Assembly: GCF_036321535.1 (NCBI RefSeq)
Contig: NC_087436.1
Coordinates: 11,470,001-11,534,000, forward strand
Source: Camelus dromedarius
Taxonomy: Eukaryota
DNA: 64,000 nucleotides
Direction of reading: 5' to 3'
Below the pieces are notes generated by a model that saw nothing but the letters and a program-made list of their open reading frames with translations, ran no database searches and had not been told where the DNA came from. The translations under genes and the position numbers were made by a program. This document shows, piece after piece, positions 1-58,114 of the stretch. Each line of letters begins with the position of its first letter. The stretch's first letter is position 1.

Positions 1-1165
1 TTATCTGACATACATCTCAAAAATTTTCTCCTAGAAGAAATAAAAGCAAGAATAAACAAATGGGACCTAATGAAACTTACAAGCTTCTGCACAGCAAAGA
101 AACCAGAAGTAAAACAAGAAGAAAACCTACGGAATGGGAGAAAATTTTTGCAAGTGAAACCGACAAAGGCTTGATCTCCAGAATATATAAGCAGCTCATA
201 CGACTCAATAAGAAAAAAATAAACAACCCAATCCAAAAATGGGCAGAAGACCTAAACAAGCAATTCTCCAAGGAAGACATACAAATGATCAAAAAGCACA
301 TGAAAAAATGCTCAATATCACTAATTATCAGAGAAATGCAAATCAAAACTACAATGAGGTATCACCTCACACCAGTCTGAATGGCCGTCATTCAAAAATC
401 CATAAATGACAAATGCTGGAGAGGCTGTGGAGAAAGGGGAACCCTCCTACACTGCTGGTGGGAATGCAGTTTGGTGCAGCCACTATGGAAAACAGTGTGG
501 AGATTCCTCAAAAGACTAGGAATAGACTTACCATATGACCCAGGAATCCCGCTCCTGGGCTTGTATCCAGAAGGAAATCTACTTCAGGATGACACCTGCA
601 CCCCAATGTTCATAGCAGCACTATTTACAATAGCCAAAACATGGAAACAGCCTAAATTTCCATCAACAGGTGACTGGATAAAGAAGACGTGGTATATTTA
701 TACAATGGAATACTACTCAGCCATAAAAACCGACAACATAATGCCATTTGCAGCAACATGGATGCTCCTGGAGAATGTCATTCTAAGTGAAGTAAGCCAG
801 AAAGAGAAAGAAAAATACCATATGAGATCGCTCATATGTGGAATCTAAAAAACAAAAACAAACAAAAACAAAGCGTAAACACAGGACAGAAATAGACTCA
901 CAGACAGAGAATACAGACTTGTGGTTACCGGGGGGTGGAGGGTGGGAAGGGATAGCCTGGGATTTCAAAATTGTAGAATAGATAAACAAGATTACACTGT
1001 ATAGCATAGGGAAATATACACAAAATGTTATGATAACTCACAGAGAAAAAAATGTGACAATGAGTGTGTATATGTCCATGAATGACTGAAAAATTGTGCT
1101 GAACACTGGAATTTGACACATTGTAAAATGATTATAAATCAATAAAAAATGTTAAAAAAAATAAA
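1..1165 (+). mobile_element. LINE-1 3' portion (ORF2 C-terminus, 3'UTR, A-rich tail), young camelid-type family; runs off the window start
   Basis: Disrupted ORF2 C-terminal motifs ([36 protein letters not shown]), G-rich 3'UTR, AATAAA and A tail. Confidence 0.95.
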
Positions 1166-6700: not shown

Positions 6701-9700
6701 AACATATGCAGCCATATTCACAAGTTCTACTATTTTCAATGTTTACCTTTATAAAAAGACAATGTTTAATGCTGTACTTTATTCAGATAAAACATTTTTA
6801 ATTATTATGAATAAGGGTGAAATATTCTTCTAATAAGCCTTTGACTACAGACCAAAGCAATTCACTTTAATAAGGAAGACAATGGATTAAAACAGTTTGG
6901 GTGTCATGGAGCTAATAATATATTTGTGCCCAAATGTAAAAATTAGTTCCCCTCAGGAATCCTGGAACATCTGCTTCCTCTATTTCCTTTTAAATGGTCT
7001 CAGGTTTCTGTTCTTTTGTTTTTAACATTACTATCTTATTTGTGGTACAATTAATTTAATTTTATTTTGGGGGGAGGTAATTAGGTTTGTATTTATTTAT
7101 TTTTACTAATGGAGTTACTGGGGATTGAACACAGGTCCTCAAGCATAAGCACGTGCTCTATCCCTGAGCTATACCCTCCCCCCTGTATAATTAATTTTAA
7201 ATGTTACAGTAAATCCTCTAAATAAAAGAGTAAATTCTAGAGAGAAAAATCTTAGACTACATATTAACTGTATTAATTTCCCCTTATTTACATGAAGACA
7301 TTCACATGATCTTTGGAATAAAGTCGTCACCTCCTTCTGTGTCATAGAGCACATATACATATTGAAGAAAATTCTTTTTAAAAAGTACCCACCTGATACT
7401 TTACAGAGGGCTTTCATTCCTTGCAGTAAATAAATTTCTAGAGATACTATAAAATAACATGCTAGATAAACCCCACACTCAGCTCTAAACTGGAACCCCC
7501 ATTTACAACTCTTGACAGATATGTCACAGGCTGGAGCTGACCTCAGTCAACAAGATAACTTGGTGTTCATTCTGAAACATGGCTCACGTTACTGAAGTAT
7601 TGAGCTGTTTCCTATACACTAAGAAATTAACCTTACTTTAAAACTAAAGTGCACTGTGGGTGAGAATGTAAATTGGTACAGCCACCATGGAAAACAGTAT
7701 GGAGGTTCCTCAAAAAATTAAAAATACAACTACCACGTAATCCAGCAATTCTACTTCTGGATATTCATCTGAAGAAAATATAAACACTTAATTGGAAAAG
7801 ATATCTGCACTTCCATGTTCATTGTAGTTATTATTTACAATAACCAAGATATGGAGACAACCTAAGTGTTCACAGATAAACTAATGGATAAAGATGATGT
7901 TGTGTGTGTCTATGCGTGATCGTGCAGTGGAATATTATTCAACCATAAAAAAGAATGAAATCTTGCCATTTGCGACAACATGGATGGACCTTGAGAGCAT
8001 TATGCTAAGTAAAATAAGTCAGAGGAAGACAAAGACTGTATGATCTCACTTAGATGCGGCATCTAAAAACAAACAAACAAACCAAGCTCATAGACCATCT
8101 CACTTATGTGTGGACTTTAAAAACAAAAAAAGCTAAAGTTCATCCATACAGAGAACAGACTGGTGGTTACTGGAGGTAGGGGGGTGGGACTGGGCAACAT
8201 AGGTGAAGAGAGTCAAAAGGTACAAACTTCTTTTTATAACATAAGTTAGTCCCATGGATGTGATGTTCAGCATGGTGGCTATGGTTAATAAAACTATATT
8301 GTATATTTGAAAGTTGTAAAGAGAGTACATCTTAAAAAGCTCTCATCACAAGAAAAATAATTCTGTGATTATGGTGACAACATTAACTAGACTTATTGCG
8401 ATGGTCATTTCACAATATAAACACATTATCAAATCATGCTGTACACCTGAAACAGAATGTTGCATGTCAATTATACCTCAATAAAAAAAAAGGCGTGACA
8501 TTACTGATTTAAAAACTAGTCACTCCATTCATATTCTAAATACTTTAGGCCTCAAAAGAAGCACAAAAAAATTAGTAAAATGAAACACAATTTTGGCACA
8601 TGTCACTTTCCCTTCATAAGGGAAATGATCTTTCAAAATGGACAGATAAAGTACTTTATTGTCACAAAGCAACTATTGCTCAATGCCACCAAATCAGGTG
8701 CTATTAAAGATTTTAGTGCATGTCAATATTGCAGCAGGAATGAAATCTTGATTTCTTCTGGGCCTGGATTTTTTTCTTTTAAAGTATCCTTCTATTTATT
8801 TTTCATGTTAACATATTTGAAGCTTACTTAATTTTACCACAGAGAGTTTGGAGAGAGGCACAAACACCAATCTTCAGACAGCTCTAAATTTAGAAAGAAG
8901 GAGCTTCTTAAATGGTTTATCCAAAGCAAGTTTGGGCTAAATGCAGTTTGCATGTATTATTTTTTTGTTTTACATTTTGTTATTTTTAAATTTTAAAGCC
9001 AGACTTATGTCTCAGTTGCCTTTTGAGGATGCAAAAGTTTGTGAATCTTTTTTTTTCATTTTCTTTTTTTATGAAAAGCTTTTGTCATTCTCATTGACAA
9101 AAATTTGTCGATGACACAGATTTGGAACTGTGACTCGATGGTAAGTTCCTGGTGGTTTGAAATTAGGGGAGTCTGGATGTGCTCAGCAAGGAGAGAGATG
9201 AGTGCTCAGTAGGGTCTGGGTCAGGTAGTAAGTTCTTCCAGCCAGAAAGGTGATGGCGGGGCTTCAAGTGGGGCTGCGACCAGCAGTAAAGGCCTTTCTG
9301 GATCAGAACAGGCTCCGTGCGATTCTCACCTGTGTACACAAGCAGACACACCAGGGAACAGAGCAGCTCCAGGGCCAGGATGGCCAGCATGAGGTCCAGG
9401 TAGAGCGTGCCCAGCTCAGGGAAGGAGTGCTGCAGGCAGAGGACGAGGAGGAGCGCCGTGTTGCCTGCGGGAGGAAAGCCAGTCGGTGCGGGTGCGGGTG
9501 CTGGTGCGGGTGTGGGTGTCAGTGTCCTGGGAGCCCACGCCACAAGCACCCACCCCGTCACACCCGCGACGAAGGGAGGGAGGCGATGGAAACCGGCATG
9601 GCCAAGAACAAATGATGCCCCCTAACACGAACACATAAGAATCTGGACTTTCTTAAAAACCAAGGAGTGACCTCCAAGGAGGACCCAGTGGTCCCTTCTG

Positions 9701-12700
9701 GTCGGGCAGCGCATCAGGGATCCAGGAAAACACCCTGGATGCGCTGCTGGCCTTGGACAGATGCCCTGACACCTTCGCTCCTCCAATCCTTGCCTGAAAA
9801 GGAGAGTACAAGTACCTTCCTCACAGGACTGCTGTGAGGAGTAAGAGTTAATACGTGAAAAATACTTAGAGTGGTGCCTGGCCTGGAAGTACCCAATAAA
9901 TACGAGCCATTTCCCCCCTGCGCAGCATATCTGTTATTTTTGAAGACCATTTTAACCTCATTCTGCACTTTTACTCTAAAGACTGTCAAAGAAAAGGTCT
10001 TTGATCTTCTGGGTCCTTGTATGAGTGACGTAAAAGTGATGCCATCTGTGGTTAAACTAAGGGTCCAATTGTTTGGAAAGACTGTGATTAAGGGTCACAT
10101 GTGTAACAAGAATTTGAAAGTCAGAGGACAGGAAAAGATCAGACAATCTCTCGTTGGGCCTCAGAAATACTACTTCCAGACCATCACTGGAGAAACTGAA
10201 CATTATTTTGGTCAGTGTACAAATAGGTTTCCTATTTTCACTTTGTTGGGGGAGGAAAGGTTATAGTAACACCTTCTGGCCAAAAACAAGTACTGCATGT
10301 GAGCGGTGGCATGTCAGAAACCGCCCCTCTTCCTCTGGGAGGTGAAGGCCGCCCCCTGGGAGATGCGTCCATCCCTCTACAAGGCTTCTTCCTCTGCTGC
10401 TGGTCGGCCCTCCCGCTCCCACTGAGAAGCTCACTAAGTGGATGAACTCACGGTCTGCCCTTTAAGAAAATGCACTACCAGAACACAGGAAAAAACATTA
10501 AATTATGTAGCTCTGTTTTAATGGAGAAAAATTAATTTCTAATTTGGTTTTGGAATGTTCAACTGTTTATTCTAGACTCAAATTGACAAAGAGAGTTTTT
10601 TTAAAAGGTGAAAACGTTGACTATAAGGCAAAAATATCTGAAGAAGTTCAGTTTAATTCCATGAAGCCTTTACAATGTCTGCAGCAATAAAGAAAAGCGG
10701 GCACATGAGCATTCTGAGTTCTGGACAAACTTTCTGACCTTGCCTTCAGAAACTGTTTTTCAGGTTTTCCATTTTATAACATCTTATAATAGTTGCTCTC
10801 TTATTGCAAGAAAAACACTGAGTTTCATTTAAATTCCCTCTTACCCTACAAGTATACATAGCAATAGTTTTCTATCTCCTTGAGATGGAAAAGCCTGCTG
10901 GTACCAAGGGAGGGGAAAGCCCACATTTCACACAGGGATATGTGCACACCATGCTCACAATGAACACGAGCAGGAAACGCCAGCCCAAGATACGCCTCTT
11001 TGGCATTAGGATTATTTTAAGCTGATTGGTTTTAAGAAACATCAGACACAGATGAATCTCTGAAAACTGAAAAGGAGTCACCTTTTGTGAGAGAGATTTA
11101 CACTTATAAAGGAACTCTCCACTTATAAGGGTGTCTCCCTCTCTATACCAGGAAGAGGAGGGTGACTCTAAATCTCTAGACACTCTCATCAATGGAGAAG
11201 GCAAGGACTTAAATCTGCATAACACCCTTACTCTTGTTTACTGTGCTTTTCCTGAAAACTTCCCATAATTGCCCCTTCCCAACATCCTCCTTCTGTCTTT
11301 AGCTGAAAATGATATTTAAGGTAATGGCTTAGGCCATTTCAGGGAGTTACTCGGTTTTCCTGGGTCTCTTCTCTGTATAAAAGTATTCATGTTATTAAAC
11401 ATCTGCTGTTTTTCTCCTGTTAATCTGTCTTTTATTACAGTGGAATCTCAGCCAAGAACCTAGAAGGGTAGAGGGAATGCTATTTTTCCTCCCCTACAAT
11501 AACCAACACAGATTTCAAAGGAAAATATCAGAAAAGCTTCAAGACATTAAGGTGATCCAAATTTTAGAGGCCACCTCACTCGCACAAAAATGAGAGAAGA
11601 TATCTGATTATAAAATCAAACTTAACATTTTCTTTCTGCTGCTATTCTTGCTACTCAAGCAAGCCACAGGATAGCCGAGAGAGACTGGGAACGGGGAGGT
11701 GGGGAGCTTACCAGTTGAGTGTATCATCAGCGCAAGGCTTTTAAGATGCCTCGTCGACCGGTAGATCTTGTTATAGCCTCTGTTTCTTACTTTGCTGTGG
11801 TGATACTGGATGTATCGTTCAAGAAGGAAATGCAGAATCCACAAAATAACTTTTCCCAGGATTATGACCGTCTGAACTTTCAGTGGGTTGGTATAGTTTC
11901 CTGGGCACTTGTCCTCATTTGGATTGGGGTAAGAACAAAGCACGCCTGTTAAAAACGCTAAAACAACAAACACAACCTGGTGGAAAGGAAAGCAGTAGAA
12001 TTAATATTCAATATTTGGATTTAAGAAACAGTAATCACCATCCCAGCACATATTCTAACACCTATGACTTTCACTGTCTTATTTTTATGAGTTCAAAAAA
12101 AATTTTTTTTTGCCATTTTTACCAACTTTTAAAAAAGAAAATCTGGGGAAAACTTTTGCAGGAAATCCTGGAAACAGATAAAATCACAAATAAGAAATAA
12201 AAATCACCCCAAATCTCATCTAACAGAAATGAGTCTTAATGTTAAACAGTTTCCTGCCCACTTTTCTGTTATTAAAAAGAGTAAAAACAGTAAATTTTGC
12301 GCCTCAAATGTAACTAAGTAAAATCCTGAATTAAAAAAGTTTTTTTCTAGTTTCATTTTCAAGAGAAGAAGAATAACTATCCAATTAGATTGACAAAAAT
12401 TTAGTAGACTGGTGCCAAAATCTGTATGGACATTCTCGTATGTTGCTGACCGGTTTGGGAACTGCTCTTTCAGTTTCAAGATAACTTGGAAATGATCTTG
12501 ACCTAGAAATCCCCGAAGGACCCTAGCCCTCAGAAGTAAAAGTACCAGTACCTAGGATATATAGATATAAATACTCACTGCAGTATTCTCTATATTTGCA
12601 AAAATGGAAAACTGCCCAAGTATATGCGTGCACAGCCACTCATATAACAGAATATTATTCACCTATAAAAGAATTAACTACAGCTCTATGTATTAGTTTG

Positions 12701-21700: not shown

Positions 21701-23754
21701 GTAATACCTGTAATATTAATTTGGACCATTAGTCATGCTGCCTTGTATTGTTTCCTTTATGAGCAGGCCTTTTGTTTTCCCTGACTGCACTGAAGGGGTT
21801 GGGAGCAATACAGTTTCTCCTCTATGTCACTTATTCACTTTTCAAGAAATACAATGTATTTGGTGGCTATATCAAATACACTGTCCTCTGGATCCTAAAG
21901 GAAATGTAGGAAAACCATGCAAACAGCACCCTGCACCCTGTCACTCTCTGTAACTCGCCATCTGCAAGTGACAGGTGAAGGGAAGATGACCCTGAGCCAA
22001 TCTCTTCATTCCCACGATTAATAAGTACATCGCTACCTGGAGAAGATAGATGTCTGTTTTTGGCCCACACCATCTCTTCCCTCTTCTTTTATGACAATAC
22101 TTCTGCCTCCTTTGGGGACCCAATGTCTACCTCTGCATTATGTCTCAAGGGGATCATCCTTTGATGCTCCTCACCTTCCTCGGGCCTAGGGGTGGTCATG
22201 GAACCAAAGAGGGCGGGGCCAATCCAACTGTCTCTGGGAGCAGCAAAGGGAGGGAGGCCGTGACTGAGGGAGCCCCATCCCACCACAGACACTGAAAGAA
22301 TTCCAGTCACTGGATCTGCTGAGCTGCCCTTGTTTGGGTCCTTTCAGAGGCTTAGGTGTTCATCTACCCTATATCCTTTGGAATAAATCTCTTTCTTCCT
22401 TAAAGTAGCCTGAGTTGGTTTGCCCGCTTGCAAGCAAGGAACCCTAACAAAAAACCTTTGCCTCTTTTAACTCATTTAAGTGTCTGGGCCTAAGACATGG
22501 TTTTTAGCCTTTTACTTCGTGGTAGAAATCATACCCACAAAAATACCAAAAGCAAGCAACTTACTCAGATCTAAAGTGATTTAGTTATGTAGTTGTTGGT
22601 GAAACATTACTCTCCAATTGTGTGGTGAAACAAATTTCTAGGATTGTACTCATCCTAAAGCTAAAAGCTACAGATCCAAGAACCCGAGGCAGCTTAGCCC
22701 TAACCAAAAATTTTTCCAAGAGTCTCATGTTCCTCTCAGATACTCATTTTCTCCATACATTGTCAGCTCCTGAATCTCACCCTTAAAAATTTAGAAAAAA
22801 ATCCATTTTTCTTTAAATATGTACAAGTCTTAAATCTACTTTCAGGGCTTACAGTTACTTTCCATTTTCTCAACTGAAAAAATAAAATTCTTTAGTTTTA
22901 TCATTAGAAATTGGTCACTATTTGCACAAGGATCTAAAGTCTTGTAGGACTGGAACTGTGTTTCATGTGCCTTGCCCGATGCACTTCACTCAGTGCTAAG
23001 ATTACAGTAATATTTCTATTACTTCATTAACCCAAATTAGTGCTTTAATATAACTGTCAACATTGCATTTCTTCTAGGCAAGAATTTATTTCGTGTCAAT
23101 GGGCAACCCAGTTAATTCTGAGCACAAACACATGCTTCCTCTAAACAATGTTTTAATGCACTTAAGCAAAGATTTTTCTAACTACCCTTCACTCCCATAT
23201 ACACTATATCCACTGTAACTAGGGCACTGGTTTCTTAGCAATTTGGTTTGGATCCATTAAAGGAAGGAGATTTAAAAATCCCTTCATTCCTACCATGACT
23301 CGATTCAAAACATCACGACACTGTTTATATCCAGTGAGGGTTTCCGGGCGATGACAGGGACAGGTCTACCCAGGAAGCCGCTGCCGCTCCAGTTCATAGC
23401 CCTCAGGGCCAAGCCCCGGGTCCACGAAGAGCGGGACGTCCTGCGTCCCAGCGGCCAGACGCCCCACATGCGAACCGCGGGCCGCCCCAGTTCCGGGACC
23501 CGACAAACGCCCGCATGGGGCTAGGCGACCGCCCGGCCTCCGCTAGGAAAACAACCCCAGGGCCGGCGCGGCGCGGACCCCGCCGCCTCCCGGGTGCTTC
23601 CTCCCACGACCCCGCGCCCCGGCAGCACGGCGCAGGAGGCGCCCCTCGGGCCAAGGCTGTCCCCACCCCCGTCTCCGCCCAGCGCGCCCAGCTCCGGAAT
23701 TGGGGATCCGGGCCGGCCGCCCGCCATCTGCATCTGCGCACTCACGTCCTCCAT
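3597..23754 (-). CDS. TMEM192: Transmembrane protein 192 (lysosomal/late endosomal), spliced CDS complement(join(3597..3735,4028..4130,9330..9464,11712..11976,17669..17815,23746..23754)), 798 nt, 265 aa
   Basis: Six exons with GT-AG introns and compatible phases join into one ORF ([18 protein letters not shown]...[12 protein letters not shown]...[23 protein letters not shown]...[20 protein letters not shown]) matching the mammalian TMEM192 sequence as I recall it. Confidence 0.97.
4028..4130 (-). CDS. TMEM192: TMEM192 exon 5 (103 nt)
   Basis: ttttag/TG AAA...TTC AG/gtaagt; [35 protein letters not shown]. Confidence 0.96.
4420..4730 (+). mobile_element. MaLR LTR (MLT1A/B-like), degenerate
   Basis: ggccacgtgaggacacagcaagaa...gccaagccagaggcctc...ccttgatctc...ccagcttccagaac motifs typical of MLT1. 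Confidence 0.7.
5060..5620 (-). mobile_element. Old L1M 3' fragment
   Basis: Degenerate match to the antisense L1MB/MC 3' end. Confidence 0.6.
6072..6535 (+). mobile_element. 5'-truncated LINE-1 3' end
   Basis: [11 protein letters not shown] motif, 3'UTR, AATAAA tail. Confidence 0.9.
7056..7183 (-). mobile_element. tRNA-Ala-derived camelid SINE (Vic-1-like)
   Basis: Reverse complement of ggggagggtatagctcag..gagcacgtgct..gttcaatccccagta plus cctaattacctcccc tail. Confidence 0.9.
7655..8491 (+). mobile_element. LINE-1 3' end (older L1MA-like)
   Basis: ORF2 end and 3'UTR ending in tacctcaataaaaaaaaa. Confidence 0.9.
9330..9464 (-). CDS. TMEM192: TMEM192 exon 4 (135 nt)
   Basis: cccgcag/GC AAC...ACA G/gtgaga; [45 protein letters not shown]. 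Confidence 0.96.
9485..9526. repeat. Degenerate (GGTGCG)n hexamer repeat, 7 units, next to the exon 4 acceptor
   Basis: ggtgcg ggtgcg ggtgct ggtgcg ggtgtg ggtgtc agtgtc. Confidence 0.85.
10961..11498 (+). mobile_element. ERV1 solo LTR (MER34-like) in TMEM192 intron 3
   Basis: TG...CA ends, 4-bp TSD acaa/ataa, MER34-type gcctctttggcattaggattatttt and cagccaagaacctagaagggtaga motifs. Confidence 0.85.
11712..11976 (-). CDS. TMEM192: TMEM192 exon 3 (265 nt)
   Basis: ccaccag/GTT GTG...ACT G/gtaagc; [88 protein letters not shown]. Confidence 0.97.
12757..14460 (+). mobile_element. LINE-1 3' 1.7 kb (disrupted ORF2 and 3'UTR)
   Basis: [31 protein letters not shown] and later ORF2 motifs; poly(A) ends at 14460. 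Confidence 0.95.
14465..14622. mobile_element. MER5A hAT-Charlie DNA transposon
   Basis: gttagaaatgcaaat..gggccccaccc..aatctgt..tttaataagc..gtctgagaaacactg. Confidence 0.8.
16316..17245. mobile_element. MER21-like LTR
   Basis: gacaccagctgggtg..caattcaactcaattctgacac..gctcagtcccacaagactgcccc..caggaaattccaaggg. Confidence 0.8.
17669..17815 (-). CDS. TMEM192: TMEM192 exon 2 (147 nt)
   Basis: cccag/GGT TCC...ATA CAT/gtaagt; [49 protein letters not shown]. Confidence 0.96.
19430..19660 (+). mobile_element. MIR SINE, degenerate
   Basis: gcctgggttcaaa..tgggcaag..acctctccgcctcag..cctgtacaaa..taaaagtgcttggcacactgcctggcac. Confidence 0.7.
22120..22450 (+). mobile_element. Old MaLR (MLT1) LTR fragment
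   Basis: 3' end aataaatctctttcttccttaaagtagcctgagttggttt..cttgcaa..ccctaac. Confidence 0.6.
23746..23754 (-). CDS. TMEM192: TMEM192 exon 1 coding part (MED)
   Basis: GGCAGT-ATG-GAG-GAC followed by a GTGAGT donor, inside the CpG island; strong Kozak context (A at -3, G at +4). Confidence 0.88.
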
Positions 23755-23759
23755 ACTGC

Positions 23760-23801
23760 CCGCCGCCGGAGGCCGCAGCCCCGCCGCCCGAGGCCGCAGC
23801 C
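23760..23801. repeat. 21-bp tandem duplication just upstream of the TMEM192 ATG
   Basis: ccgccgccggaggccgcagcc / ccgccgcccgaggccgcagcc (1 mismatch). Confidence 0.9.
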
Positions 23802-24749
23802 GGGCAGCCCGGCCTCCGCACCTGCGCCTCGCGCCGCCTTCCGGAACCCGCCCCAGGGCCCGCCCCTCCCTGCCGATTAGCCGAGGCGCAGAGGACGGGC
23901 CCCGCGGCCCGAGGCCTTCCTGGCCCCTCCGCCTCGCTTCTATTAGCCGATGCAGAGGGGGCGGCCCCGACACCTCGCTCCCGATTGGTCTATGCGGAAG
24001 GGGCGTGCCTCTTCCTGAAGACCAGCCTAGGGCCTCCGCTGCGGCTAGGACGGTCTGTGTTTCTGGGAGACCCCGCAACCTCCCCTTGCGTTCCAGGTTG
24101 GCGGAGATTTTGGCACTAAAGGATGCGTTCCAAGTCCAAGAACTGAAATATTTTTAGTAGCCACTTGCTGCTTTGTAAAACATTAACTTTTCTCCGTCTT
24201 ACTTAATTTTTGTTTGCAGCATTGCCCCATGCATAGAATCAGCGATAGAATCCTAGGTTCCCATTTATCGCTCAAAACACGAACAGAAGAAAGACTAATT
24301 TCTATGAGTATTTACAGATTCCACCAGTGGGACATGAGGCAATAAGAAATGTTTAGGACTTTTAAAAAATGGAACTACATTTTTATAACATTTTCTGAAA
24401 ATACATGATCGTTGTGAAAATGTAAGTAAAATTTTCTGTTAATACTAATCCCCATAGGTAATGCTGATACTAGAATACATGAATACATACACTTCCATAC
24501 TTTTAATGCGTATTTGTACATTGTATACGGTGTAATCTTGTTCGTACCGTTGGTGAAATAAAATCGTTTAAATACCAGCAAAAGAGAAGATGCTGTAAGA
24601 CTCCACCTGATCTTTAAAATCTCATGAAATTTTTAAATCTTTAAAATATCCTGAGGTTATATGAATTATTTCTTAAGAGCTTTGTCTAAACATGCATTTC
24701 CCCTCAACATTTTCTTTTTAAAATTTTCAAACCTATGGAAATGTAGAAA

Positions 24750-33519: not shown

Positions 33520-33646
33520 GGGGGGAGGGTCCAGCTCAGTGGTAGAGCATGTGCTCAGCATGCACAGGGTCCTGGGTTCAATCCCCAGTAGCTCCACTAA
33601 AAAATAAATAAATAAGTAAACCTAATTACCTCCCCTCAAAACAAAC
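33520..33646 (+). mobile_element. Vic-1-like SINE
   Basis: ggggagggtccagctcagtggtagagcatgtgctcagcatgcac..gggttcaatccccagta; TSD about aaaggtg(g/a)a. Confidence 0.92.
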
Positions 33647-34772: not shown

Positions 34773-34904
34773 TTTCTTGGGGGGAGATAATTAGGTTTAT
34801 TTAATTAATTTATTTGTTTTATTTTAATGAAGGTACTGGAGATTGAACCCAGGACCACGTGCATGCTAAGCATGAATTGTACCACTTAGCTACACCCTCC
34901 CTCC
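34773..34904 (-). mobile_element. Vic-1-like SINE
   Basis: ggtactggagattgaacccaggaccacgtgcatgctaagc..agctacaccctccc. Confidence 0.9.
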
Positions 34905-39419: not shown

Positions 39420-39912
39420 TGTGAACGAAAATACTGCAATGTGAGTGAAAATACTGCAAACATATCAGTAAACAAAGAATGCTGAAACCAAGTCACCAGC
39501 GGCTGCCGCCACCCCCCAGTGGGGACAGGCCTGCAGCCCAGCCCCTGCAGCCACTTATAATGGTGTACACTGAGCAGACTCAGAATAAGAAAGGACAGGA
39601 TACTGGCCCTAGATGGCTAGGTGCTTGTCAAAGGAATGAATTCAATGAGCCCAAAGGTTTGCTCCCTCCCATACATAGAAAAGCACTAAATTCTTTAACT
39701 TGAGATGCCTGGTTTTCTTTAGATAACAAGTATCTTTTATTGTTCCAACTACCTGGTCTTTGTTGTAAAGCTCCTATATATCCTAGCTCCTCCCCTACCT
39801 CTTCGGAGCAGCCCCTCAGAGCCATCTGAGAGGTTAGCATCTCGGCTCGAGTCCTCCCACCAAATAAAACATAACTTTTAACTTTAAGGCTGCGCGTTTA
39901 TTTCAGTCAACA
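39420..39912 (+). mobile_element. ERV1 solo LTR, copy A
   Basis: TG...CA termini, perfect TSD GTAC, TATA-like ctatata and AATAAA. Confidence 0.92.
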
Positions 39913-40467: not shown

Positions 40468-40946
40468 TGAGAATGAAAAATACTTCAAACCACATCAGTA
40501 AACAAAGAATGCTGAAGCCATCAAGTCATCAGCAGCTGCTGCCACCCCCCAGTGAAGACAAGCCTGCAGCCTGGCCACTGCAGCCACTCACAATGGTGCA
40601 CCCTGAGGGGACTCAGAATAAGAAAGTACAGGATACTGGCCCTAGATAGCTAGGTGCTTGTCAAAGGAATGAATCCAATGAACCCAAATATTTGCCTCCT
40701 CCCATACATAGAAAAGCACTAAATTCTTTAACTTGAGATGTCTGGTTTTCTTTAGATAACAAGTAATGTTTCATTGTTCAAACTACCTGGTCTTTGTTGT
40801 AAAGCTCCTATATATCCTGGGTCCTCCCCTACCTCTTCAGAGCAGTCCCTCAGAGCCATCTGAGAGGCTGTCATCCCAGCTCGAGTCCTCCCGCCAAATA
40901 AAACGTAACGCTCAACTTTTAGGCTGCACATTTATTTCAGTAGACA
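40468..40946 (+). mobile_element. ERV1 solo LTR, copy B (same family as copy A)
   Basis: Colinear with copy A, TG...CA termini, TSD ttac/ttgc, inserted in an antisense L1M 3' fragment. Confidence 0.92.
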
Positions 40947-48502: not shown

Positions 48503-49775
48503 TCTTTTTTAATTTTTTTTCTAGTTGAGGTAGAGTTGATGTACAAGATTATATAAGTTTCAGGTGTACAAAAGGGTGAGTCACAATTTTTAAGAAGTAT
48601 TTATCTTATTTATTTTTTTGTTTTTGGGGGTAGGTAATTAGGTTTATTTATTTACTTGTTTATTTTAATGGAGGTACTGGGGATTGAACCCAGGACCTCA
48701 TGCATGCTAAGCACGTGCTCTACCACTGAGCTTTACCCTCCCCCGCCCGTGATTCACAATTTTTAAAGGTTATATTCCACTTATAATTATTGTAAAACAT
48801 TGTCTACATTCCCTGTGCTGTGCACTATATCCTTGTGAGCTTATTTATTTTATACACAGTAGTTTGTACTTCTTAATCCCCTACTCCTACCTTGCCCACC
48901 CTCCTTTCCTCTTCCCGCTTGTAACCACTGGTTTGTTCTCTATATCTGTGTATGTTTCTTTTTTTTTTTATTATATTCACTAGTTTGTTTTATTTTTTAG
49001 ATTCCACATATAAATGATATCATACAGTATTTGTCTTTCTGTATCTGACTTATTCACTTAGCATAATGCTATCTGAGTCCATCCATGTTGTTGCAAATGG
49101 CAAAATTTCATTCTTTTCAATGACTGAGTAGTAGTCTGCTGTATATTCATACATACCACATCTTCTTTATCCATTTGTCTGGTGATGGACTCTTAGGTTG
49201 CTTCCATTTCCCGGCAATTGTAAATGTCTATTCAGGTTTTATGCCTATTTTTGATTGATTTTTTTTAATATTGAGTTGTATGACCTGTTTATATATTTTG
49301 GATATTAACCCCTTATAAGTCATATCATTTGTAAATGTTTTCTCTCATTCAGTAGGTTGTCTTTTCATTTTGTTGATGGTTTCCTTTGCTGTGCGAAACT
49401 TTTTAGGTTTAATTGGGTTCCATTTGTTTATTTTTGCTTTGGTTTCCTTTGCTTTAGAAGACAGATCCAAAAAGCATTGCTATGATTTATGTCAAAGATT
49501 GTTCTACCTATATTCTCTTCTAGGAGTTTTATTGTGTCATGTCTTATATTTAGGTCTTAATCCAATTAGAGTTTATTTTTGTATATGGTATGAGAAAATG
49601 TTCTAATTTCACTGTTTTACAGGTGGCTGTCCAATTTTCTGAGCATCACTTACTGAAGAGACTGTCTTTTCTTCGTTGTATATTCTTGCCTCCCTTGTCA
49701 TGGATTAACTGACCATAAGAACATGGGTTTATTTTTGGGCTCTTTACTCTATTCCATTGACCCATGTGTCTGTTT
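48503..49775 (-). mobile_element. LINE-1 3' fragment with an internal deletion and a nested SINE
   Basis: Antisense 3'UTR and ORF2 sequence. Confidence 0.88.
48594..48748 (-). mobile_element. Vic-1-like SINE nested in L1
   Basis: 18-bp TSD gtga(g/t)tcacaatttttaa. Confidence 0.92.
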
Positions 49776-50593
49776 TAACGATGCACTTCTTTTTAAAGTT
49801 AATAATCTTACAGAACATTTTGTGTCAGTACACATGTGTTTACCTCATTCTTTGATAATTATACAGTGTTCTATTCATGAATATGTCATCATTCCTTTAT
49901 CACCCGCCTATTGTTGAATGTTTTTTAACGTGGGAAACTGTTTCAGTAAAATACCCTTGAACCTAGGTACATATAAGCATGTATCTGTAGCATAAATACC
50001 TAGAAGAATTGCTAAGTTAGATGGATTCATTAGAATATAACTTGATAGACAGAGGGATATATATACACATACATATATGTATATACATACACATTTGTAC
50101 ATATAGTGAGCACTCAAAAATATTTATTAAATTGAATTGAAATAGTATCTGCATTTTTAATGTAAGACCTACTATAATAAGAAATTACAGGAGGAAAACA
50201 TGTTTAACGTCATAAATTATGAAAAAGCATTTGATAAAATGTAACACACACTCCCAATTTCATAGCAAGAAATAAAACAAAAACCTTAATACACTGGGAC
50301 TAAAAGGAAACTTCTTAATTTGATAAAGAGCATACATGGGAAAGCCATAGGCAACACCACATTTAGTGATGAAACAGTAGAAGTAGTCCTGTTAAAGTTA
50401 GGGAACAAGGTGGGCCCTGATAATAACTAGTACTCTTCAACATTTTGCTGGCTATTCTAGCCAGTTCAATAAGACAAGAAGAATAAGGTAAGTAAGATTA
50501 TTGGACAGGCAGAGACAAATCTGTCACTATTTGTCAGTAATATCATTATCTCCCTAAACAATCCAAGAGAATCTATTAGAGCCAATTAGATTT

Positions 50594-51044
50594 TTTTAAT
50601 TGATTTATAATCATTTTACAATGTTGTGTCAAATTCCAGTATAGAGCACAATTTTTAAGTTATACGTGAACATATATGTATGTATATATTCATTGTCATA
50701 TTTTTTCCTCTGTGAGCTATCATAAGATAAGATCTTGTATATATTTCCCTGTGCTATACAGTATAATCTTGTTTATCTATTCTACAATTCTGAAATCCCG
50801 TCTATCCCTTCCCACCCTCCGCCCCCTTGGCAACCACAAGTTTGTATTCTATGCCTATGAGTCTATTTCTGTTTTGTATTTATGCTTTGTTTTTCTGTTT
50901 TTGTTTTTGTTTTAGATTACACATATGAGCGATCTCATATGGTATTTTTCTTTCTCTTTCTAGCTTACTTCACTTAGAATGACATTCTCCAGGAGCATCC
51001 ATGTTGCTGCAAATGGTGTTATGTTGTCGGTTTTTATGGCTGAG
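50594..51044 (-). mobile_element. Young LINE-1 3' end (same family as 1..1165)
   Basis: 17-bp TSD tagagccaattagattt (50577..50593 / 51045..51061); sits within an old L1M ORF2 remnant. Confidence 0.95.
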
Positions 51045-52941
51045 TAGAGCCAATTAGATTTAGTAAGGTCATCAAATACAAGGACAAATACAAAAATCAG
51101 CGTTGGTGTATAAACGACTTTGTTTTATCCATCATTAATAAACAATTTAAAATGTAAGACTGAAAGGCTCCCAGACATCTCTAGTGACTACTTGATCCCT
51201 GGCACCACTTCCCATGGTCACAATCAGTGACCACCATCAAGATATTAATCTCAAAAATATCCCCACTTCTGAAATTTCATTTTCAAATACTCTACTACTT
51301 CCTTTTAGCTCAGTTACTCAAGTAACCCCCACTCTTCAACCTCTTGGAGACATCCAGTCCCTGGGCCATACCACAAGCTCAGGTTCCTCTCATCTTAGCT
51401 CCCTCCTGGCTTGTCTAGATTCCGTGGTCTTACCTCCCTTCCCCCTCCCAACCCTTGACCTCCCCTGGGTTGGTGGGGGGGGCGGTGGTAAGGGGGTGGG
51501 TGGTGTTAGGGAATCATTCTGGTTTAAAACTTTCTAAGAATTTGACATTTTAGGGGTCATCACATAATTAAGACATACTGTTTGGTATGAAAGTATACAG
51601 TATGGCACGTTAAAGTGAATGTAAAATAGAAGAACTCTATCTAAAGTGGAAACATAAGCCCCCTTAACAGAGCAGGACAAAAGGGACTCAAGCAGAGATA
51701 AACTGAAAACAACAAGAACTCACCGTTTGTTCCTTACGAGAGATTATTGCTGGTAGCGCAGTAACTGGAGAAGTGCCTTCTCTGATGGCAGCCTCCTCCC
51801 CTCCAGCAGTGGGTAAACACTATGTTCTGGTACTCCATTTTGTTTTTTCTTTTTTCTCCAATATTGTTCCCAGGTAAAAAGAACCATAGCTTTTCAAAAT
51901 GTTTGATTCTGTGTCTTGAAGCAGGAAAAATCAAGACAAGCCTGGAACTTTGTGTTTTTTCTTCTTTTGTCCAGAAAGCAAAGATATTTGCATTCAGCAC
52001 CTGGCTGTTGAATACATAGAGGCTAGCCGGAAGAGAGGTAAGCACTAAGCACCATCAGTTTCCCTGCGTCCTAATTACCATGTTGTTCCCCAAGTGTTTG
52101 AATTCTTACAATTATTTTAAATTGGTTTTTGATCATCAGCCCAGGCATTCTGGAATTGCTTCCAACATATGCAGGTCCAGAAGAGATTTCCTCAGGAACA
52201 AAAGCACAAACCTTGCAAAGGCAGCCAGTATGATGAGTGGAATCGACACCTAATTAAAGACAGTAATAGCACATAAAACTATTGGTTCCCCAAGTTATTT
52301 CTTTTCAAACAATCTTTCTGTAACTTTCTCCTTTTAAACTGATTTTTATTTATATACATGTTACTGTTTGCATATTCATCTATATTACAATGGTTTTAGG
52401 GCTGAATTCCAATTTCATAAGCCAAGTTTGGTAGAAGGACCTTGACTCTCTGTTGATAGTTAAAAAAACCAAGGTAACACATAGCTACGAGGTCATTGCA
52501 ATGCAGTCATTTTTCTAGTATTGTCTACAAAGAGTGCTGAGGACTGAACAACCCAAGTTATGTGAGTTTTTTAAACCTCCACATTAAAACTACAAATGTG
52601 AGCTTCATTTCTTAAAGGGATGAAAATGTACAAAGATACATGTAAAAAGAGAGAATATGCTATGGAAAGAGGGACAATGCTACATAGAGTGAACTACATT
52701 GAAAACTAGCTAAGACATTTCATATATATATATATATTTTTTAGTTAAAATTACATTTATTGATAAGCCAACATTTGACCCTAACCCTAGTACACCAAAC
52801 CCGAAGTAGCACATATTCAGAAAGCTAAGACACGATTAAACTGAGAAAAATATATTAGAGAATGGAAAAGTAAATCTAAATTAAAAGATAAGGAGAAAAA
52901 AATTTAAATATACTGTAAATCCAAAATAGATCTTTTTTGCA

Positions 52942-53070
52942 GGAGAGGGTATAGCTCAGTGGCTGAGTGCATGCCTAGCATGCACGAGGTCCTGGTTCAA
53001 TCCCCAGTGCCTCCATTTAAATAAATAAATAAACATAATAACCGCCCTTCCCCAAAACCAAAAAACAAAC
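52942..53070 (+). mobile_element. Vic-1-like SINE
   Basis: gagagggtatagctcagtggctgagtgcatgcctagcatgcacgaggtcctgg. Confidence 0.92.
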
Positions 53071-53367
53071 AAAATAGTTCCTCTTTTACAGGGAGATAAA
53101 ATTTAGCAATTATGTCAAATAAATAAATTCAGGAATTGGTGGTAGAACAAGTTAAATGATTGGAGTGAAACTGACAGTATTTATACATGAGTAGTATTTC
53201 AGAAATAAACGCACTTAACTATAGAGGAAAAACAGTGAGAAAGCAAAACTACAAGCCGAGGAGGCACTCAGCATTGTTCTAAGCCCGCATAGAACCACGT
53301 TCTTCGAGCCCCTCGGGAGCTGGTCTGCACAGCCCATGGGCTGACTATGGGGGCCAGGTACGGAGAG

Positions 53368-53462
53368 GAGCGGTGGTACTTCATAACTACCAGAGGTAAA
53401 AGCCGCAGAAAGAAAGAAAAGAGAGTACCTAGCCTTAACATGTGAACATGATCAAAATCGGA
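53368..53462 (+). repeat. 95-bp direct repeat, copy 1
   Basis: Identical to 56945..57039. Confidence 0.97.
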
Positions 53463-53727
53463 ACAGGAGAATGCTTGCTTTGAAGTCTGCCTTCAGCATC
53501 TGGACACCTCGATTCGTCAGTGCCACATGAAGGCAGTGGTCCACCGCAACGTTCTCCGAATACAAGACCCGGTTCAATTTGATTCAGTCTTTCCCATGTA
53601 ATTCTAACCGTTCATTTTTATAACTAGGATCGGACGCATATTATCTCATGAATATTAAATACCTAAAAAAAGTAATTTTTTATAAACACTTGGTGGATAA
53701 AATACATATTTAAAATCAATCAGTGTA

Positions 53728-53942
53728 TAGTATATGTAAAATAAACAATAAGGACCTACTGTATAGCACAGGGAACTATATTCAATTTCTTATAATAAGC
53801 TATAATGGAAAAGAACCTGAAAAAATACATGCATGTACGAATATGTATAACTGAATCGCTCTGCTGTACACCTGAAACTAACATTGTAAATCAACTACAC
53901 TTCAATAAAAAATTAAATTTAAAAATAAGAAAAAAAAAAAAG
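53728..53942 (+). mobile_element. Short LINE-1 3' end
   Basis: 16-bp TSD aaaatcaatcagtgta (53712..53727 / 53943..53958), poly(A). Confidence 0.93.
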
Positions 53943-54504
53943 AAAATCAATCAGTGTAATTAGTAACTATTTTGTATTTTAGAAAACAGTATTTTGGCGG
54001 GCTTGGTTTACGTGAACAATGTTCTGAGCCGCCACTCTGCCTGCGCAGGTGGTCGGAGGCTGATTACTGGAAGCGCAGGTGAAAGTAGACTTCATCACAA
54101 ATAGGAGGCTCTGTTCTCATTTGAAGGAGTACAAGCCAAACATCATTGCTCCAATTCACTGATCTCTGCCTGTATTTCTTGCATTAAAAAATAATAACAG
54201 AAGGCAATTAAGCACATGAACAGACTGAATAAAACTGTTGGGTGTTAACCCTGAAAGAGAACACACCTAAATGTCATTCTCGTGATTGTGCAATTTCGTA
54301 ACACGTCTGCTCTCAAAAGGCGTTGCAGAAAAATCAGCTTAATTTCAGAAACATACATGTTATCTATGAACATGTAAATTTCAACAATACAGTCTCGAAG
54401 TTGAGGCACCTTTTCATTCTTCTCCTTCTCCTAATGAGGGTATGCTATACTTTTCTATCATGCTTGGTTGCTGTTCACTGAATAAACTCAACAGAAATTT
54501 GGCT

Positions 54505-54990: not shown

Positions 54991-55014
54991 ATTGAGATTT
55001 TACTATATTTAATT

Positions 55015-55819
55015 TTTTAAACATTTTTTACTGATTTATAATCATTTTACAATGTTGTGTCAAATTCCAGTGTAGAGCACAATTTTTCAGTTGAACATAC
55101 ATATATTCACTGTCACATTTTTTTCTCTGTGAGCTACGATAAGATCTTGTATATATTTCCCTGTGCTATACAGTATAATCTTGTTTATCTATTCTACAAT
55201 TTTGAAATCTCAGTCTATCTCTTCCCACCTCCTGCCCCCTTGGCAACCACAAGTTTGTATTCTATGTCTGTGAGTCTATTTCTGTTTTGTATTTATGCTT
55301 TGTTTGTTTGTTTGTTTGTTTTAGATTCCACATATAAGCGATCTCATATGGTATTTTTCTTTCTCTTTCTGGTTTACTTCACTTAAAATGACATTCTCCA
55401 GGAGCATCCATGTTGCTGCAAATGGTGTTATGTTGTCATTTTTTACGGCTGAGTGGTATTCCATTGTATAAATATACCACATCTTCTTTATCCAGTCACC
55501 TGTTGATGGACATTTAGGCTGTTTCATGTCTTGGCTATTGTAAATAATGCTGCTATGAACATTGGGGTGCAGGTGTCATCCTGAAGTAGAGTTCCTTCTG
55601 GATATGTGCCCAGGAGCGGGATTCCTGGGTCATATGGTAAGTCTATTCCTAGTCTTTTGAGGAATCTCCATACTATTTTCCATAATGGCTGCACCAAACT
55701 GCATTCCCACAGGCAGTGAAGGAGGCTTCCCTTTTCTCCACAGCCTCTCCAGCATTTGTCATTTGTGGATTTTTGAATGATGGCCATTCTGACTGGTGTG
55801 AGGTTATACCTCATTGTAG
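55015..55819 (-). mobile_element. Young LINE-1 3' end (same family as 1..1165)
   Basis: 15-bp TSD ttactatatttaatt (55000..55014 / 55820..55834); ORF2 C-terminal motifs. Confidence 0.95.
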
Positions 55820-56944
55820 TTACTATATTTAATTATTACATAAACAATTCACCTGGCTTTAAAAGCCAGGAAAACCAGAGTTGTAGGCCTGAGTCATATA
55901 ATCACATATATTTCAACAACAAAGTTGAATGAAAATTAAGAGGCTTGGGACCTTAAAGGCTTGGAGGGACAGAAACCAAGTGCAAGTATGGTTGGGAGAC
56001 TGAGCAGAGGCTGGAGAACTGTGCTTTGCAACATGCCCAGTCTAGTGTGTTTTTTGCACAGTCATTTCCAGACCCGCTTAGACTCCTACATTTTATCTCA
56101 CAGTGTGAGCTTGGTGACTGTCTCATTTTTTTTTGTATGTCTGTAAAACGGGACTAGAGGAATCTATGTATACCCCTCTCCCAACGCTTATGAAAAAGAC
56201 TGGCAAACATGTGGTACACACTTCAATTTTAAATGTCATAAACAGGCAAGTCTACGATTTTACTTGTTGTTTTTCTTATCCAACCATGATTTTGGTTTTT
56301 TGGAACAAACCAGAATATGCCTACATCTGCACACTACTGGTCTGTTTCATGTGGGTTTCCTGTTTTATTGAATCGGTATTTTGTCAACACACCAGTAAAG
56401 ATCTTAAAACACATATATTTTACTTGAATCCTTTGTAGAATAACCATGTGCTTTAATGTGATTATAAACATTGGAATAAATCTAGCCTCAAAAAAATAGA
56501 GGATTCTCTATATGCTTATGATATTTCTCTTTCCAGACATTTTCTGTTTGGAAATAGATATTGTCTGAAGACAACATATAGAGACATTAAGAAGTAAGGA
56601 TAGTAAGGGGATAATAAGGTATTCTATATTTGGAAAAATTACTTTTTTAAGATAGAATTTTGAAAGAGTGTATTGTTTCAGAGAAGAACTAAGACTATCT
56701 AGAATTTGAGGAGCTGCTCTGAATCCAGAACTATTTCATTTGCCACGTTGATGTGATTTCTCTTTTTCCCCTGGGCTAGTTTCATCCCAATTCTTTACTT
56801 TTTCTTTTCAATAAAAGTAGTTGTTCTTCTTCAGGCACAAAAACAGTCTGTTATTTTGATAGATACTTGGTTTATAGGGATAATAATTTCCAAAACTTTA
56901 TTATGATTTTTTGATGGAGGAGTAGGAAGGTTCCCCACATATAT

Positions 56945-57039
56945 GAGCGGTGGTACTTCATAACTACCAGAGGTAAAAGCCGCAGAAAGAAAGAAAAGAG
57001 AGTACCTAGCCTTAACATGTGAACATGATCAAAATCGGA
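56945..57039 (+). repeat. 95-bp direct repeat, copy 2, ending in an inverted repeat (57024..57050)
   Basis: Identical to 53368..53462; catgatcaaaatc-g-gattttgatcatg. Confidence 0.97.
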
Positions 57040-58114
57040 TTTTGATCATGCTCAAATATTTCTAATGAGCAAATTAAATATTTTTTACAAGGTAAAATGT
57101 TTGACTTGACATTTCTACTTCCTGGCCAGTAAAAGCATATGGAGAATTTAGGCACTTATAGTTAGTGATAATTAGCATATTTACAGTATATTTAAATATA
57201 TTCAAATATATAATATATTAAATATATTTAATCATACCATTCAACACTCCAATTTTACAAATCTTTACCTACCATTTTCATCACCATCAGCCCAACCATG
57301 CTGTTCAAGGCAGACCTAGAACCAATGGAAAATCAAATTTGGCCACTCTAAGATTCTTTAAAAGTAATAGATTCTGTATTTCTAAATATCTAAACTGCGT
57401 GTTTTGGTTTTCTTAATGACCTTATGATCATGAAATCCACATCTTTTTACTACAGCCCATTGAGAGCAGTTTGTTAGAGGTGCTTATAGTTCTTCTAACG
57501 GTTTAAAATGAGATTAAACACCTGTGACTCTATTAATGCCACTGCGTCCTCCTTTTTCTCTCCAAGATCATCACTGTACCCCATTTCATACTTGCTTAAC
57601 ATTTACAATATGCCAAGAACTATACAAAAGACAAAATTTCATCCCTTGGGACTGGAACTTAAAAGAATCCCATTTCTTTTATCTTATTGTGGGAGTCTGG
57701 GGGAGTATTCTCCCTAACAAGCGTATATGTATTCGTGGGAAATCTAGCAATTGGTGTCCATTCAAGCTTGGAAAATTTTATGAGTATATTCGACAAGCTA
57801 ATTGTGAAAGGGTTGGTGAGGGAGAGCTGTTCTCCCAGTGTCTGGAGAGCTGGAATTGAATCTGGTAAGACTGGCAAAAATGAGACCAGGGAAGGTGAAA
57901 AGGGCCATGGAAGGAGGGAAAAGGATAAAAACTGATGTCCACCAGTGAGAACAGAGAAGCCACCCTTCATAGCTGGGAGCGGGTCTGACCCTTCCATCAG
58001 CCTCAGGAGGACACCCTCGCACCTGGCCCTGCTGTTGACTACACGCCTGTGCCTGGAGCACCAGCCTTGGGCGAGCTCACTGCGTGTCCCTGATGAAGGG
58101 AAACAGAAATAAGA

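What the first reader, a model, noticed from the sequence alone, without database searches (positions are those of the whole stretch)
56945..57060. Exact 95-bp templated insertion copied from 3.6 kb away, ending in a fold-back palindrome
Seen: 56945..57039 is 100% identical to 53368..53462, including CpGs, and does not resemble a repeat I recognise. It has no poly(A) tail and no TSD. At its right end the sequence reverses on itself: a perfect 13-bp arm, 1-nt loop, 13-bp arm (57024..57050), extending imperfectly to 23 bp with 3 mismatches (57014..57060). Established: templated insertions with snap-back or microhomology junctions are a signature of Pol theta-mediated end joining and of FoSTeS/MMBIR template switching. 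Inference: this is a recent repair scar, possibly polymorphic, with the 53.4-kb copy as donor and a hairpin-capable junction.
Basis: partly seen in the sequence, partly recalled or inferred. Interest (0 to 1): 0.7.

Follow-up and report, generated by a model that had tools for sequence, protein, structure and literature searches.

The report
Small copy-paste DNA repair scar
A 95-base piece of non-coding DNA in this mammal was copied exactly into a spot 3.6 kb away and ends in a small hairpin, most likely the inherited scar of a polymerase switching templates during repair, a known and fairly ordinary kind of mutation.

Summary
56945-57039 equals 53368-53462 at 95 of 95 bases. It is the longest exact repeat in the window and ends in the window's longest perfect hairpin (13-1-13 bp), with no TSD and no poly(A). 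CpG content points to the 53.4-kb copy as donor (likelihood ratio about 70). Public assemblies hold 0.98-0.99 of the sampled words of the region, which favours a real sequence over a misassembly (P about 0.05 for the best rows, but those may be the source sample).

Best reading: a germline templated insertion made by template switching. The native right flank probably already resembled the donor in inverted orientation (11 exact plus 7 of 10 bases), and the hairpin records a U-turn between the two donor strands. A plain Pol theta snap-back fits less well, because only one terminal base pair is available. 'Recent' means only younger than about 5-10 Myr, and polymorphism is unshown. Complex templated insertions are common germline variants in humans. 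Verdict: new member of a known kind, interest about 0.2.

The parts
53368..53462 (+). Donor copy of the 95-mer, inside a CpG-rich non-coding block (about 53200-53640)
   Evidence: Identity; 16 CpG in the 400 flanking bases, against 3 in 1000 at the acceptor
56945..57039 (+). Inserted copy, direct orientation, 3577 bp from the donor; either end may hide a few bases of microhomology
   Evidence: 3 CpG in 95 bp in a CpG-poor setting, P about 0.003 at the flank rate
57024..57050 (.). Perfect inverted repeat, 13-1-13; folds as a 12-bp stem with a 3-nt loop
57035..57039 (.). U-turn point: two bases can be read from either donor strand (2-nt microhomology)
   Evidence: Sequence; inverted alignment of donor 53437-53462 to 57060-57035, 22 of 26
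57040..57050 (-). Inner right arm: 11 bases equal to the reverse complement of donor 53447-53457. Either native flank (best reading) or newly synthesised (rival)
   Evidence: its only 11-base partners in the window are 53447 and 57024
57051..57060 (-). Outer right arm: 7 of 10 match to the inverted donor (microhomeology), read as native flank
   Evidence: P = 0.008 for a fixed 10 bases, 0.023 allowing best extension
53437..53457 (+). Donor-side landing site for the right break end (18 of 21 identical to the reverse complement of 57040-57060)
   Evidence: duplex -10.9 kcal/mol (11 nt) to -13.9 (21 nt)
56915..56944 (+). Left flank; no visible microhomology with the donor's left flank, no TSD

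Best explanation
A real germline templated insertion made by two or three template switches (MMBIR/FoSTeS-like; polymerase unknown). Step 1 (inferred): a break or stalled fork at about 57040 left a 3' end whose last 21 bases happened to match the donor 3.6 kb away in inverted orientation (11 exact plus 7 of 10), and this picked the donor. Step 2 (geometry shown, cause inferred): after about 2 bases the polymerase jumped to the opposite donor strand at a 2-base microhomology and ran back the other way, which made the hairpin with a 1-nt spacer. Step 3 (copy shown): it copied about 93 more bases. Step 4 (inferred): it rejoined the left end at 56944 with little or no homology. The same steps in reverse order give the same product. 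No function is implied: it lies in non-coding, CpG-poor DNA about 33 kb from the CpG island next to the TMEM192 exons.
For: Exact, unique, maximal copy. Direction from CpG content, likelihood ratio about 70. The arm matches only the donor end and its copy. The match continues imperfectly beyond the perfect arm (P 0.008-0.023), as expected if the arm is native flank. An 11-mer plus 7-of-10 partner within 5 kb occurs at 5 of 4588 repeat-poor sites and at 0-0.00075 of shuffled sites, so such a match can single out one donor. A switch between strands has no minimum loop, whereas the one-strand fold-back has a single pair (+2.9 kcal/mol) or a disallowed 1-nt loop. 19 of 23 listed runs hold 0.98-0.99 of 168 sampled words. 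60 of 1671 words are junction-specific, so a run lacking both junctions would reach 0.99 with P about 0.05. Multi-template, direction-reversing germline insertions and microhomeology are described (PMC8421209; PMC6902434).
Against: The empty allele was not seen, so it is unknown how much of the right arm is native; this is the key step and it is inferred. The support for homeology is one modest P value computed after seeing the data. The two 0.99 rows are one sample flagged as a possible source; the 5 unflagged rows (0.98) give only P about 0.26, and that test assumes random word sampling and rounded shares. No microhomology is visible at the left junction. The 21 bases of homeology are longer than the 7-14 bp reported in PMC6902434.
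Confidence: 0.5

Rival explanations
1. Real insertion, but the hairpin was made new by Pol theta snap-back (SD-MMEJ): the left end copied 95 bases from the donor, folded back on itself, added about 11 bases and used their end as microhomology to join the right end.
For: A 13-bp inverted repeat spans the junction, the SD-MMEJ signature (definition in PMC2943611). Pol theta makes inverted-repeat insertions by stem-loop extension (PMC11292364). A further 6-bp inverted repeat spans 57050/57051.
Against: Only one terminal A:T pair is available, and one pair almost blocked extension in vitro. The 7-of-10 outer match would be chance (P 0.008-0.023). TMEJ insertions in the literature are shorter and simpler (PMC8421209). 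Short SD-MMEJ-consistent repeats occur by chance at 43-54% of junctions without a net insertion.
Confidence: 0.22
2. Assembly or library artefact: a read-length piece from 3.6 kb away was placed here by gap filling or a chimeric molecule.
For: 95 bp is about a short-read length and 3.6 kb about a mate-pair insert (general knowledge). There are zero differences between copies. No listed run reaches 1.00.
Against: Two runs hold 0.99 of the sampled words, where about 6 of 168 should be missing without the junctions (P about 0.05). It needs two false junctions plus a hairpin. The window has no N.
Confidence: 0.1
3. A free fragment or cDNA of the donor patched a break by end joining (class 2 TSIP-like), the hairpin arising during joining.
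For: No TSD and no poly(A). Donor intact. Size lies within the 73-414 bp of experimental TSIs (PMC5110952). The donor block is CpG-rich and might be transcribed.
Against: Those TSIs came from distant regions, not nearby. A diffusible patch does not explain a donor 3.6 kb away whose end matches the flank in inverted orientation. Transcription was not tested.
Confidence: 0.1
4. Two events: an older short inverted copy of the donor end (now 3 of 23 diverged) that later seeded a conversion-like copy of the 95-mer.
For: All three mismatches sit in the outer 10 bases and none in the inner 13 or the 95-mer.
Against: It needs two rare events at one site. No other colinear inverted homology between the two regions was found at low stringency.
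Confidence: 0.06
5. The 95-mer is a member of a young dispersed repeat family.
For: Could not be excluded genome-wide, as no genome is held.
Against: Only 2 full copies in 64 kb. No TSD, tail or terminal repeats at both ends. At the donor it is a seamless part of a longer CpG-rich block. No Rfam hit there.
Confidence: 0.02

Closest known systems
Complex MMBIR-linked templated insertions (MMB-TI, 'complex' class; Osia et al. 2021, PMC8421209)
   Same: Germline insertion from more than one template or direction, with reversal of direction and microhomology or microhomeology at switches; 33 of 103 and 26 of 99 curated events in two people were complex.
   Different: MMBSearch looks for templates within about 100 bp. 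Here the main template is 3577 bp away and in direct orientation, and the reference (empty) allele is unknown.
Class 2 templated sequence insertion polymorphisms (Onozawa and Aplan 2016, PMC5110952)
   Same: No TSD, no poly(A), donor intact, size in range; TSIPs of both classes number 25-30 per person.
   Different: Their donors are distant and proposed to be RNA-derived. Here the donor is local, the junction is a hairpin, and polymorphism is unshown.
Snap-back SD-MMEJ / Pol theta stem-loop extension (PMC2943611; PMC11292364)
   Same: Inverted repeat spanning the junction.
   Different: Their templates lie within about 20 bp of the break, and extension is efficient with two or more terminal pairs. 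Here there is one pair and a 95-base copy from 3.6 kb away.
FoSTeS/MMBIR join-points with microhomeology (PMC6902434)
   Same: Imperfect match (70% or more over 5 bp or more) at a template switch, with the exact part next to the junction.
   Different: Described at large pathogenic copy-number gains with 7-14 bp of homeology. Here the gain is about 100 bp with up to 21-23 bp.

Membership tests
MMB-TI (complex class) | Inserted sequence copied from an identifiable template | tested here: met
   95 of 95 identity
MMB-TI (complex class) | At least one inverted template close to the site (within about 100 bp) | tested here: inconclusive
   The 11-13 base arm is inverted and adjacent but may be native flank; the main template is direct and 3577 bp away
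MMB-TI (complex class) | Microhomology or microhomeology at the switches | tested here: inconclusive
   2 bases at the U-turn and 18 of 21 at the right end; none visible at the left end; needs the empty allele
MMB-TI (complex class) | Absent from the ancestral or reference allele | not tested
Class 2 TSIP | No TSD, no poly(A) tract | tested here: met
Class 2 TSIP | [quoted passage not shown] | tested here: not met
   Donor 3577 bp away
Class 2 TSIP | Polymorphic in the species | tested here: inconclusive
   All 19 holders listed are at 0.98-0.99, but the list shows only best holders
Class 1 TSIP / L1-mediated retrocopy | TSD of 5 bp or more and poly(A) tail | tested here: not met
   (best 7 of 9, imperfect)
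Snap-back SD-MMEJ | Inverted repeat of 4 bp or more containing the junction, within 20 bp | tested here: met
   13 bp (definition)
Snap-back SD-MMEJ | Foldable primer repeat at the 3' end (two or more terminal pairs for Pol theta) | tested here: not met
   One A:T pair with a 3-nt loop, +2.9 kcal/mol; two pairs need a disallowed 1-nt loop (requirement)
Snap-back SD-MMEJ | Dependence on Pol theta | not testable with these tools
   Historical event
Dispersed repeat family | Many copies genome-wide | tested here: inconclusive
   2 full copies in the window; no genome held

The most novel reading that the evidence does not exclude
The scar is an unusually clean germline record of a broken end finding a donor kilobases away through about 21 bases of inverted homeology, then U-turning from one donor strand to the other (the displaced strand of a D-loop or the other arm of a fork). 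It leaves a 1-nt-spacer palindrome that mimics, but cannot easily be, a one-strand snap-back. If general, zero-to-two-base-spacer hairpins at the ends of kb-distant templated insertions would be a countable signature that separates strand-switch repair from Pol theta snap-back in pangenomes.
Probability: 0.3. Interest if true: 0.4.

Novelty: new member of a known kind. Interest (0 to 1): 0.2.

Why it matters
As a single locus it matters little: it is a 95-bp non-coding gain of a kind that human genomes carry by the dozen per person. Its value is as a worked example. One empty allele would decide between homeology-guided strand switching and Pol theta snap-back. A homoplasy-free insertion could serve as a lineage marker if it is variable. 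A perfect short hairpin was also created in the genome. No effect on a gene is evident.

Tried and rejected
No whole genome is held, so no genome-wide copy count or orthologue alignment was possible.

Null searches:
- Rfam at gathering threshold: 4 tRNA-like hits, none at either copy.
- Donor block against phage records, distant blastn: no match.
- One exact 22-base pattern from the 95-mer in metagenome contigs: 0 hits; uninformative, as host single-copy DNA is rarely assembled there.
- Six-frame translation of the donor block has stops in every frame, so no ORF spans it.
- Three look-ups of earlier findings returned nothing.

Readings rejected:
- Degenerate TSD (left flank end against 57051-57059, 7 of 9): AT-rich and one of many offsets tried.
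- Old inverted duplication of the whole donor region: three weak inverted matches are not colinear.
- Separate templated origin for the left flank: only 8-9 base chance matches.

Literature:
- I recall that Abyzov et al. 2015 found micro-insertion templates at 2-6 kb from human deletion breakpoints, which would fit 3.6 kb. The paper is not held, searches did not recover the statement, and I saw only its reference entry, so it is not used as evidence.
- A search for this locus in camelid papers listed one unrelated paper.
- A search for fold-back library artefacts found no paper with all five terms.
- A bioRxiv preprint on SV mechanisms had nothing relevant in the passages shown.

Full report
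Setting. The window is mammalian. Two minus-strand frames at 9166-9618 and 11611-11997 hit Pfam TMEM192 (E 1.5e-5 and 2.2e-27; 2 of 3 frames scanned). A CpG island lies at about 23-24.5 kb. L1-like fragments and tRNA-like elements are scattered through it. No genome is held.

Observation. 56945-57039 equals 53368-53462 at all 95 bases, and the identity stops at both ends. It is the longest exact repeat in the window and the only 100% alignment among 130 self-alignments of 60 bp or more. At low stringency the 95-mer has only these two full copies, plus the inverted match of its last 26 bases to 57035-57060 (22 of 26). The hairpin 57024-57050 is the longest perfect stem in the window. It folds with z = -5.6, while the donor equivalent does not fold better than shuffles. 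There is no poly(A) and no exact TSD.

Direction. The donor flanks carry 16 CpG in 400 bases and the acceptor flanks 3 in 1000. The 95-mer has 3, giving a likelihood ratio of about 70 for origin at 53.4 kb. The donor block has stops in all six frames, no Rfam hit and no phage match.

Is it real? A search with 56200-57900 (168 sampled words) listed 23 runs, 19 of which hold it: two at 0.99 and seventeen at 0.98, from 11 samples, 6 studies and two organism labels. Fourteen are flagged as possible sources and five are not; the other 4 rows are unindexed raw-read runs. Of 1671 possible words, 60 cross a junction and are absent from the donor region, so about 6 sampled words should be lost without the insertion. 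Under random sampling P(2 or fewer) = 0.049 and P(4 or fewer) = 0.26. The best rows, one sample that may be the source, therefore argue moderately against a scaffolding or gap-filling error. The independent rows are only weakly informative. No row reaches 1.00, the sampling scheme and rounding are unknown, and only best holders are listed. I put a real sequence at about 0.9.

Age. Zero differences in 95 bases gives a 95% upper age of 5.3-10.5 Myr at assumed rates of 3-1.5e-9 per site per year, with a median of 1.2-2.4 Myr (rates from general knowledge). Recent polymorphism is allowed but not indicated.

Junction anatomy. The reverse complement of 57040-57060 matches donor 53437-53457 at 18 of 21 bases, the 11 nearest the junction exactly. 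Beyond the perfect arm 7 of 10 pair and then pairing falls to background; chance is 0.008 for a fixed window and 0.023 for best extension. Such an 11-plus-7-of-10 partner within 5 kb exists at 5 of 4588 repeat-poor sites and at 0-0.00075 of shuffled sites. Read along the bottom strand from the right, the sequence follows the donor's top-strand sequence for two more bases, which can equally be read from the other donor strand, and then runs back along the donor for the rest of the 95. This is a U-turn with 2 bases of microhomology. If the copy's 3' end had folded on itself, it would have had one A:T pair over a 3-nt loop (+2.9 kcal/mol), or two pairs over a disallowed 1-nt loop. Purified Pol theta was almost blocked when only one terminal pair was available (PMC11292364). 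A switch between the two donor strands has no such limit. The left junction shows no microhomology with the donor flank, though some could be hidden inside the copy.

Mechanism. Shown: the copy, its direction (by composition), the hairpin geometry and the inverted homeology. Inferred: a break or stalled fork near 57040; annealing of that end to the donor through the homeology (duplex -11 to -14 kcal/mol); a strand switch after about two bases; about 93 bases of copying; and rejoining at 56944. The reverse order gives the same product. I give this 0.5, new snap-back synthesis 0.22, artefact 0.1, a free DNA or cDNA patch 0.1, two events 0.06 and a repeat family 0.02. The empty allele separates the first two.

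Comparison. It works like the complex germline MMB-TIs of Osia et al. (PMC8421209): 33 of 103 and 26 of 99 curated events in two people were complex, some reversing direction. Their search covered templates within about 100 bp, and they note that TMEJ insertions in the literature are shorter and simpler. It shares the lack of TSD and tail with class 2 TSIPs but fails their distant-donor feature (PMC5110952). It meets the formal inverted-repeat criterion of snap-back SD-MMEJ (PMC2943611) but not the primer requirement. Microhomeology at template switches is described (PMC6902434; PMC13015775). I file it as a local templated insertion of the template-switch kind, without claiming a polymerase.

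What I saw of each paper. PMC5110952: parts 1-2 of 4 of the text. PMC8421209: passages and part 1 of 2 of section 10. PMC11292364: passages and section 6. PMC2943611, PMC6902434, PMC13015775, PMC6305656 and bioRxiv 10.1101/2025.09.20.677549: passages only. Abyzov 2015: nothing but a reference entry; its 2-6 kb template distance is recalled and unverified. No supplements were read; the event lists of PMC8421209 may hold closer matches to this geometry. One search for this locus in camelid papers listed a single unrelated paper, which does not show that it is unpublished.

Verdict. It is a probably real, non-coding repair or replication scar of a known kind, with one instructive detail (the strand U-turn guided by inverted homeology) that is inferred and testable. 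Interest 0.2.

Noticed in passing
window 53200-53640: The donor lies in a small CpG-rich block (observed/expected up to 1.04 in 53501-54000), possibly an unmethylated regulatory element. 53521-53538 loosely resembles a CTCF core motif (recalled, not tested).
   Followed up: partly
window 53330-53343: Perfect 14-bp palindrome about 25 bases upstream of the donor's left boundary; it could have helped end the copying, or be chance.
   Followed up: no
window 9166-9618 and 11611-11997 (minus); 23000-24500: TMEM192 coding exons and a CpG island, presumably its promoter.
   Followed up: partly
window 39448-39907 and 40477-40941: Direct repeat pair of about 460 bp, 89% identical, 569 bases apart; LTR-like pair or old tandem duplication, not classified.
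   Followed up: no
window 33527-33596, 34828-34899, 48669-48740, 52945-53015: Four Rfam tRNA hits that belong to a mutually similar family of about 130 bp; read as tRNA-derived SINEs rather than tRNA genes.
   Followed up: partly
window 53728-53942: L1-type 3' fragment with an A-rich tail, flanked by a 16-bp direct repeat at 53712-53727 and 53943-53958, a likely TSD.
   Followed up: no
window 347-1165, 50593-51045, 55008-55821: L1-type 3' fragments 88-90% identical to one another, the youngest-looking repeat family in the window.
   Followed up: no
window 57049-57085: The right flank holds further short inverted repeats: 6 bp at 57049-57054/57066-57071 and at 57056-57061/57076-57081; common by chance in AT-rich DNA.
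   Followed up: partly
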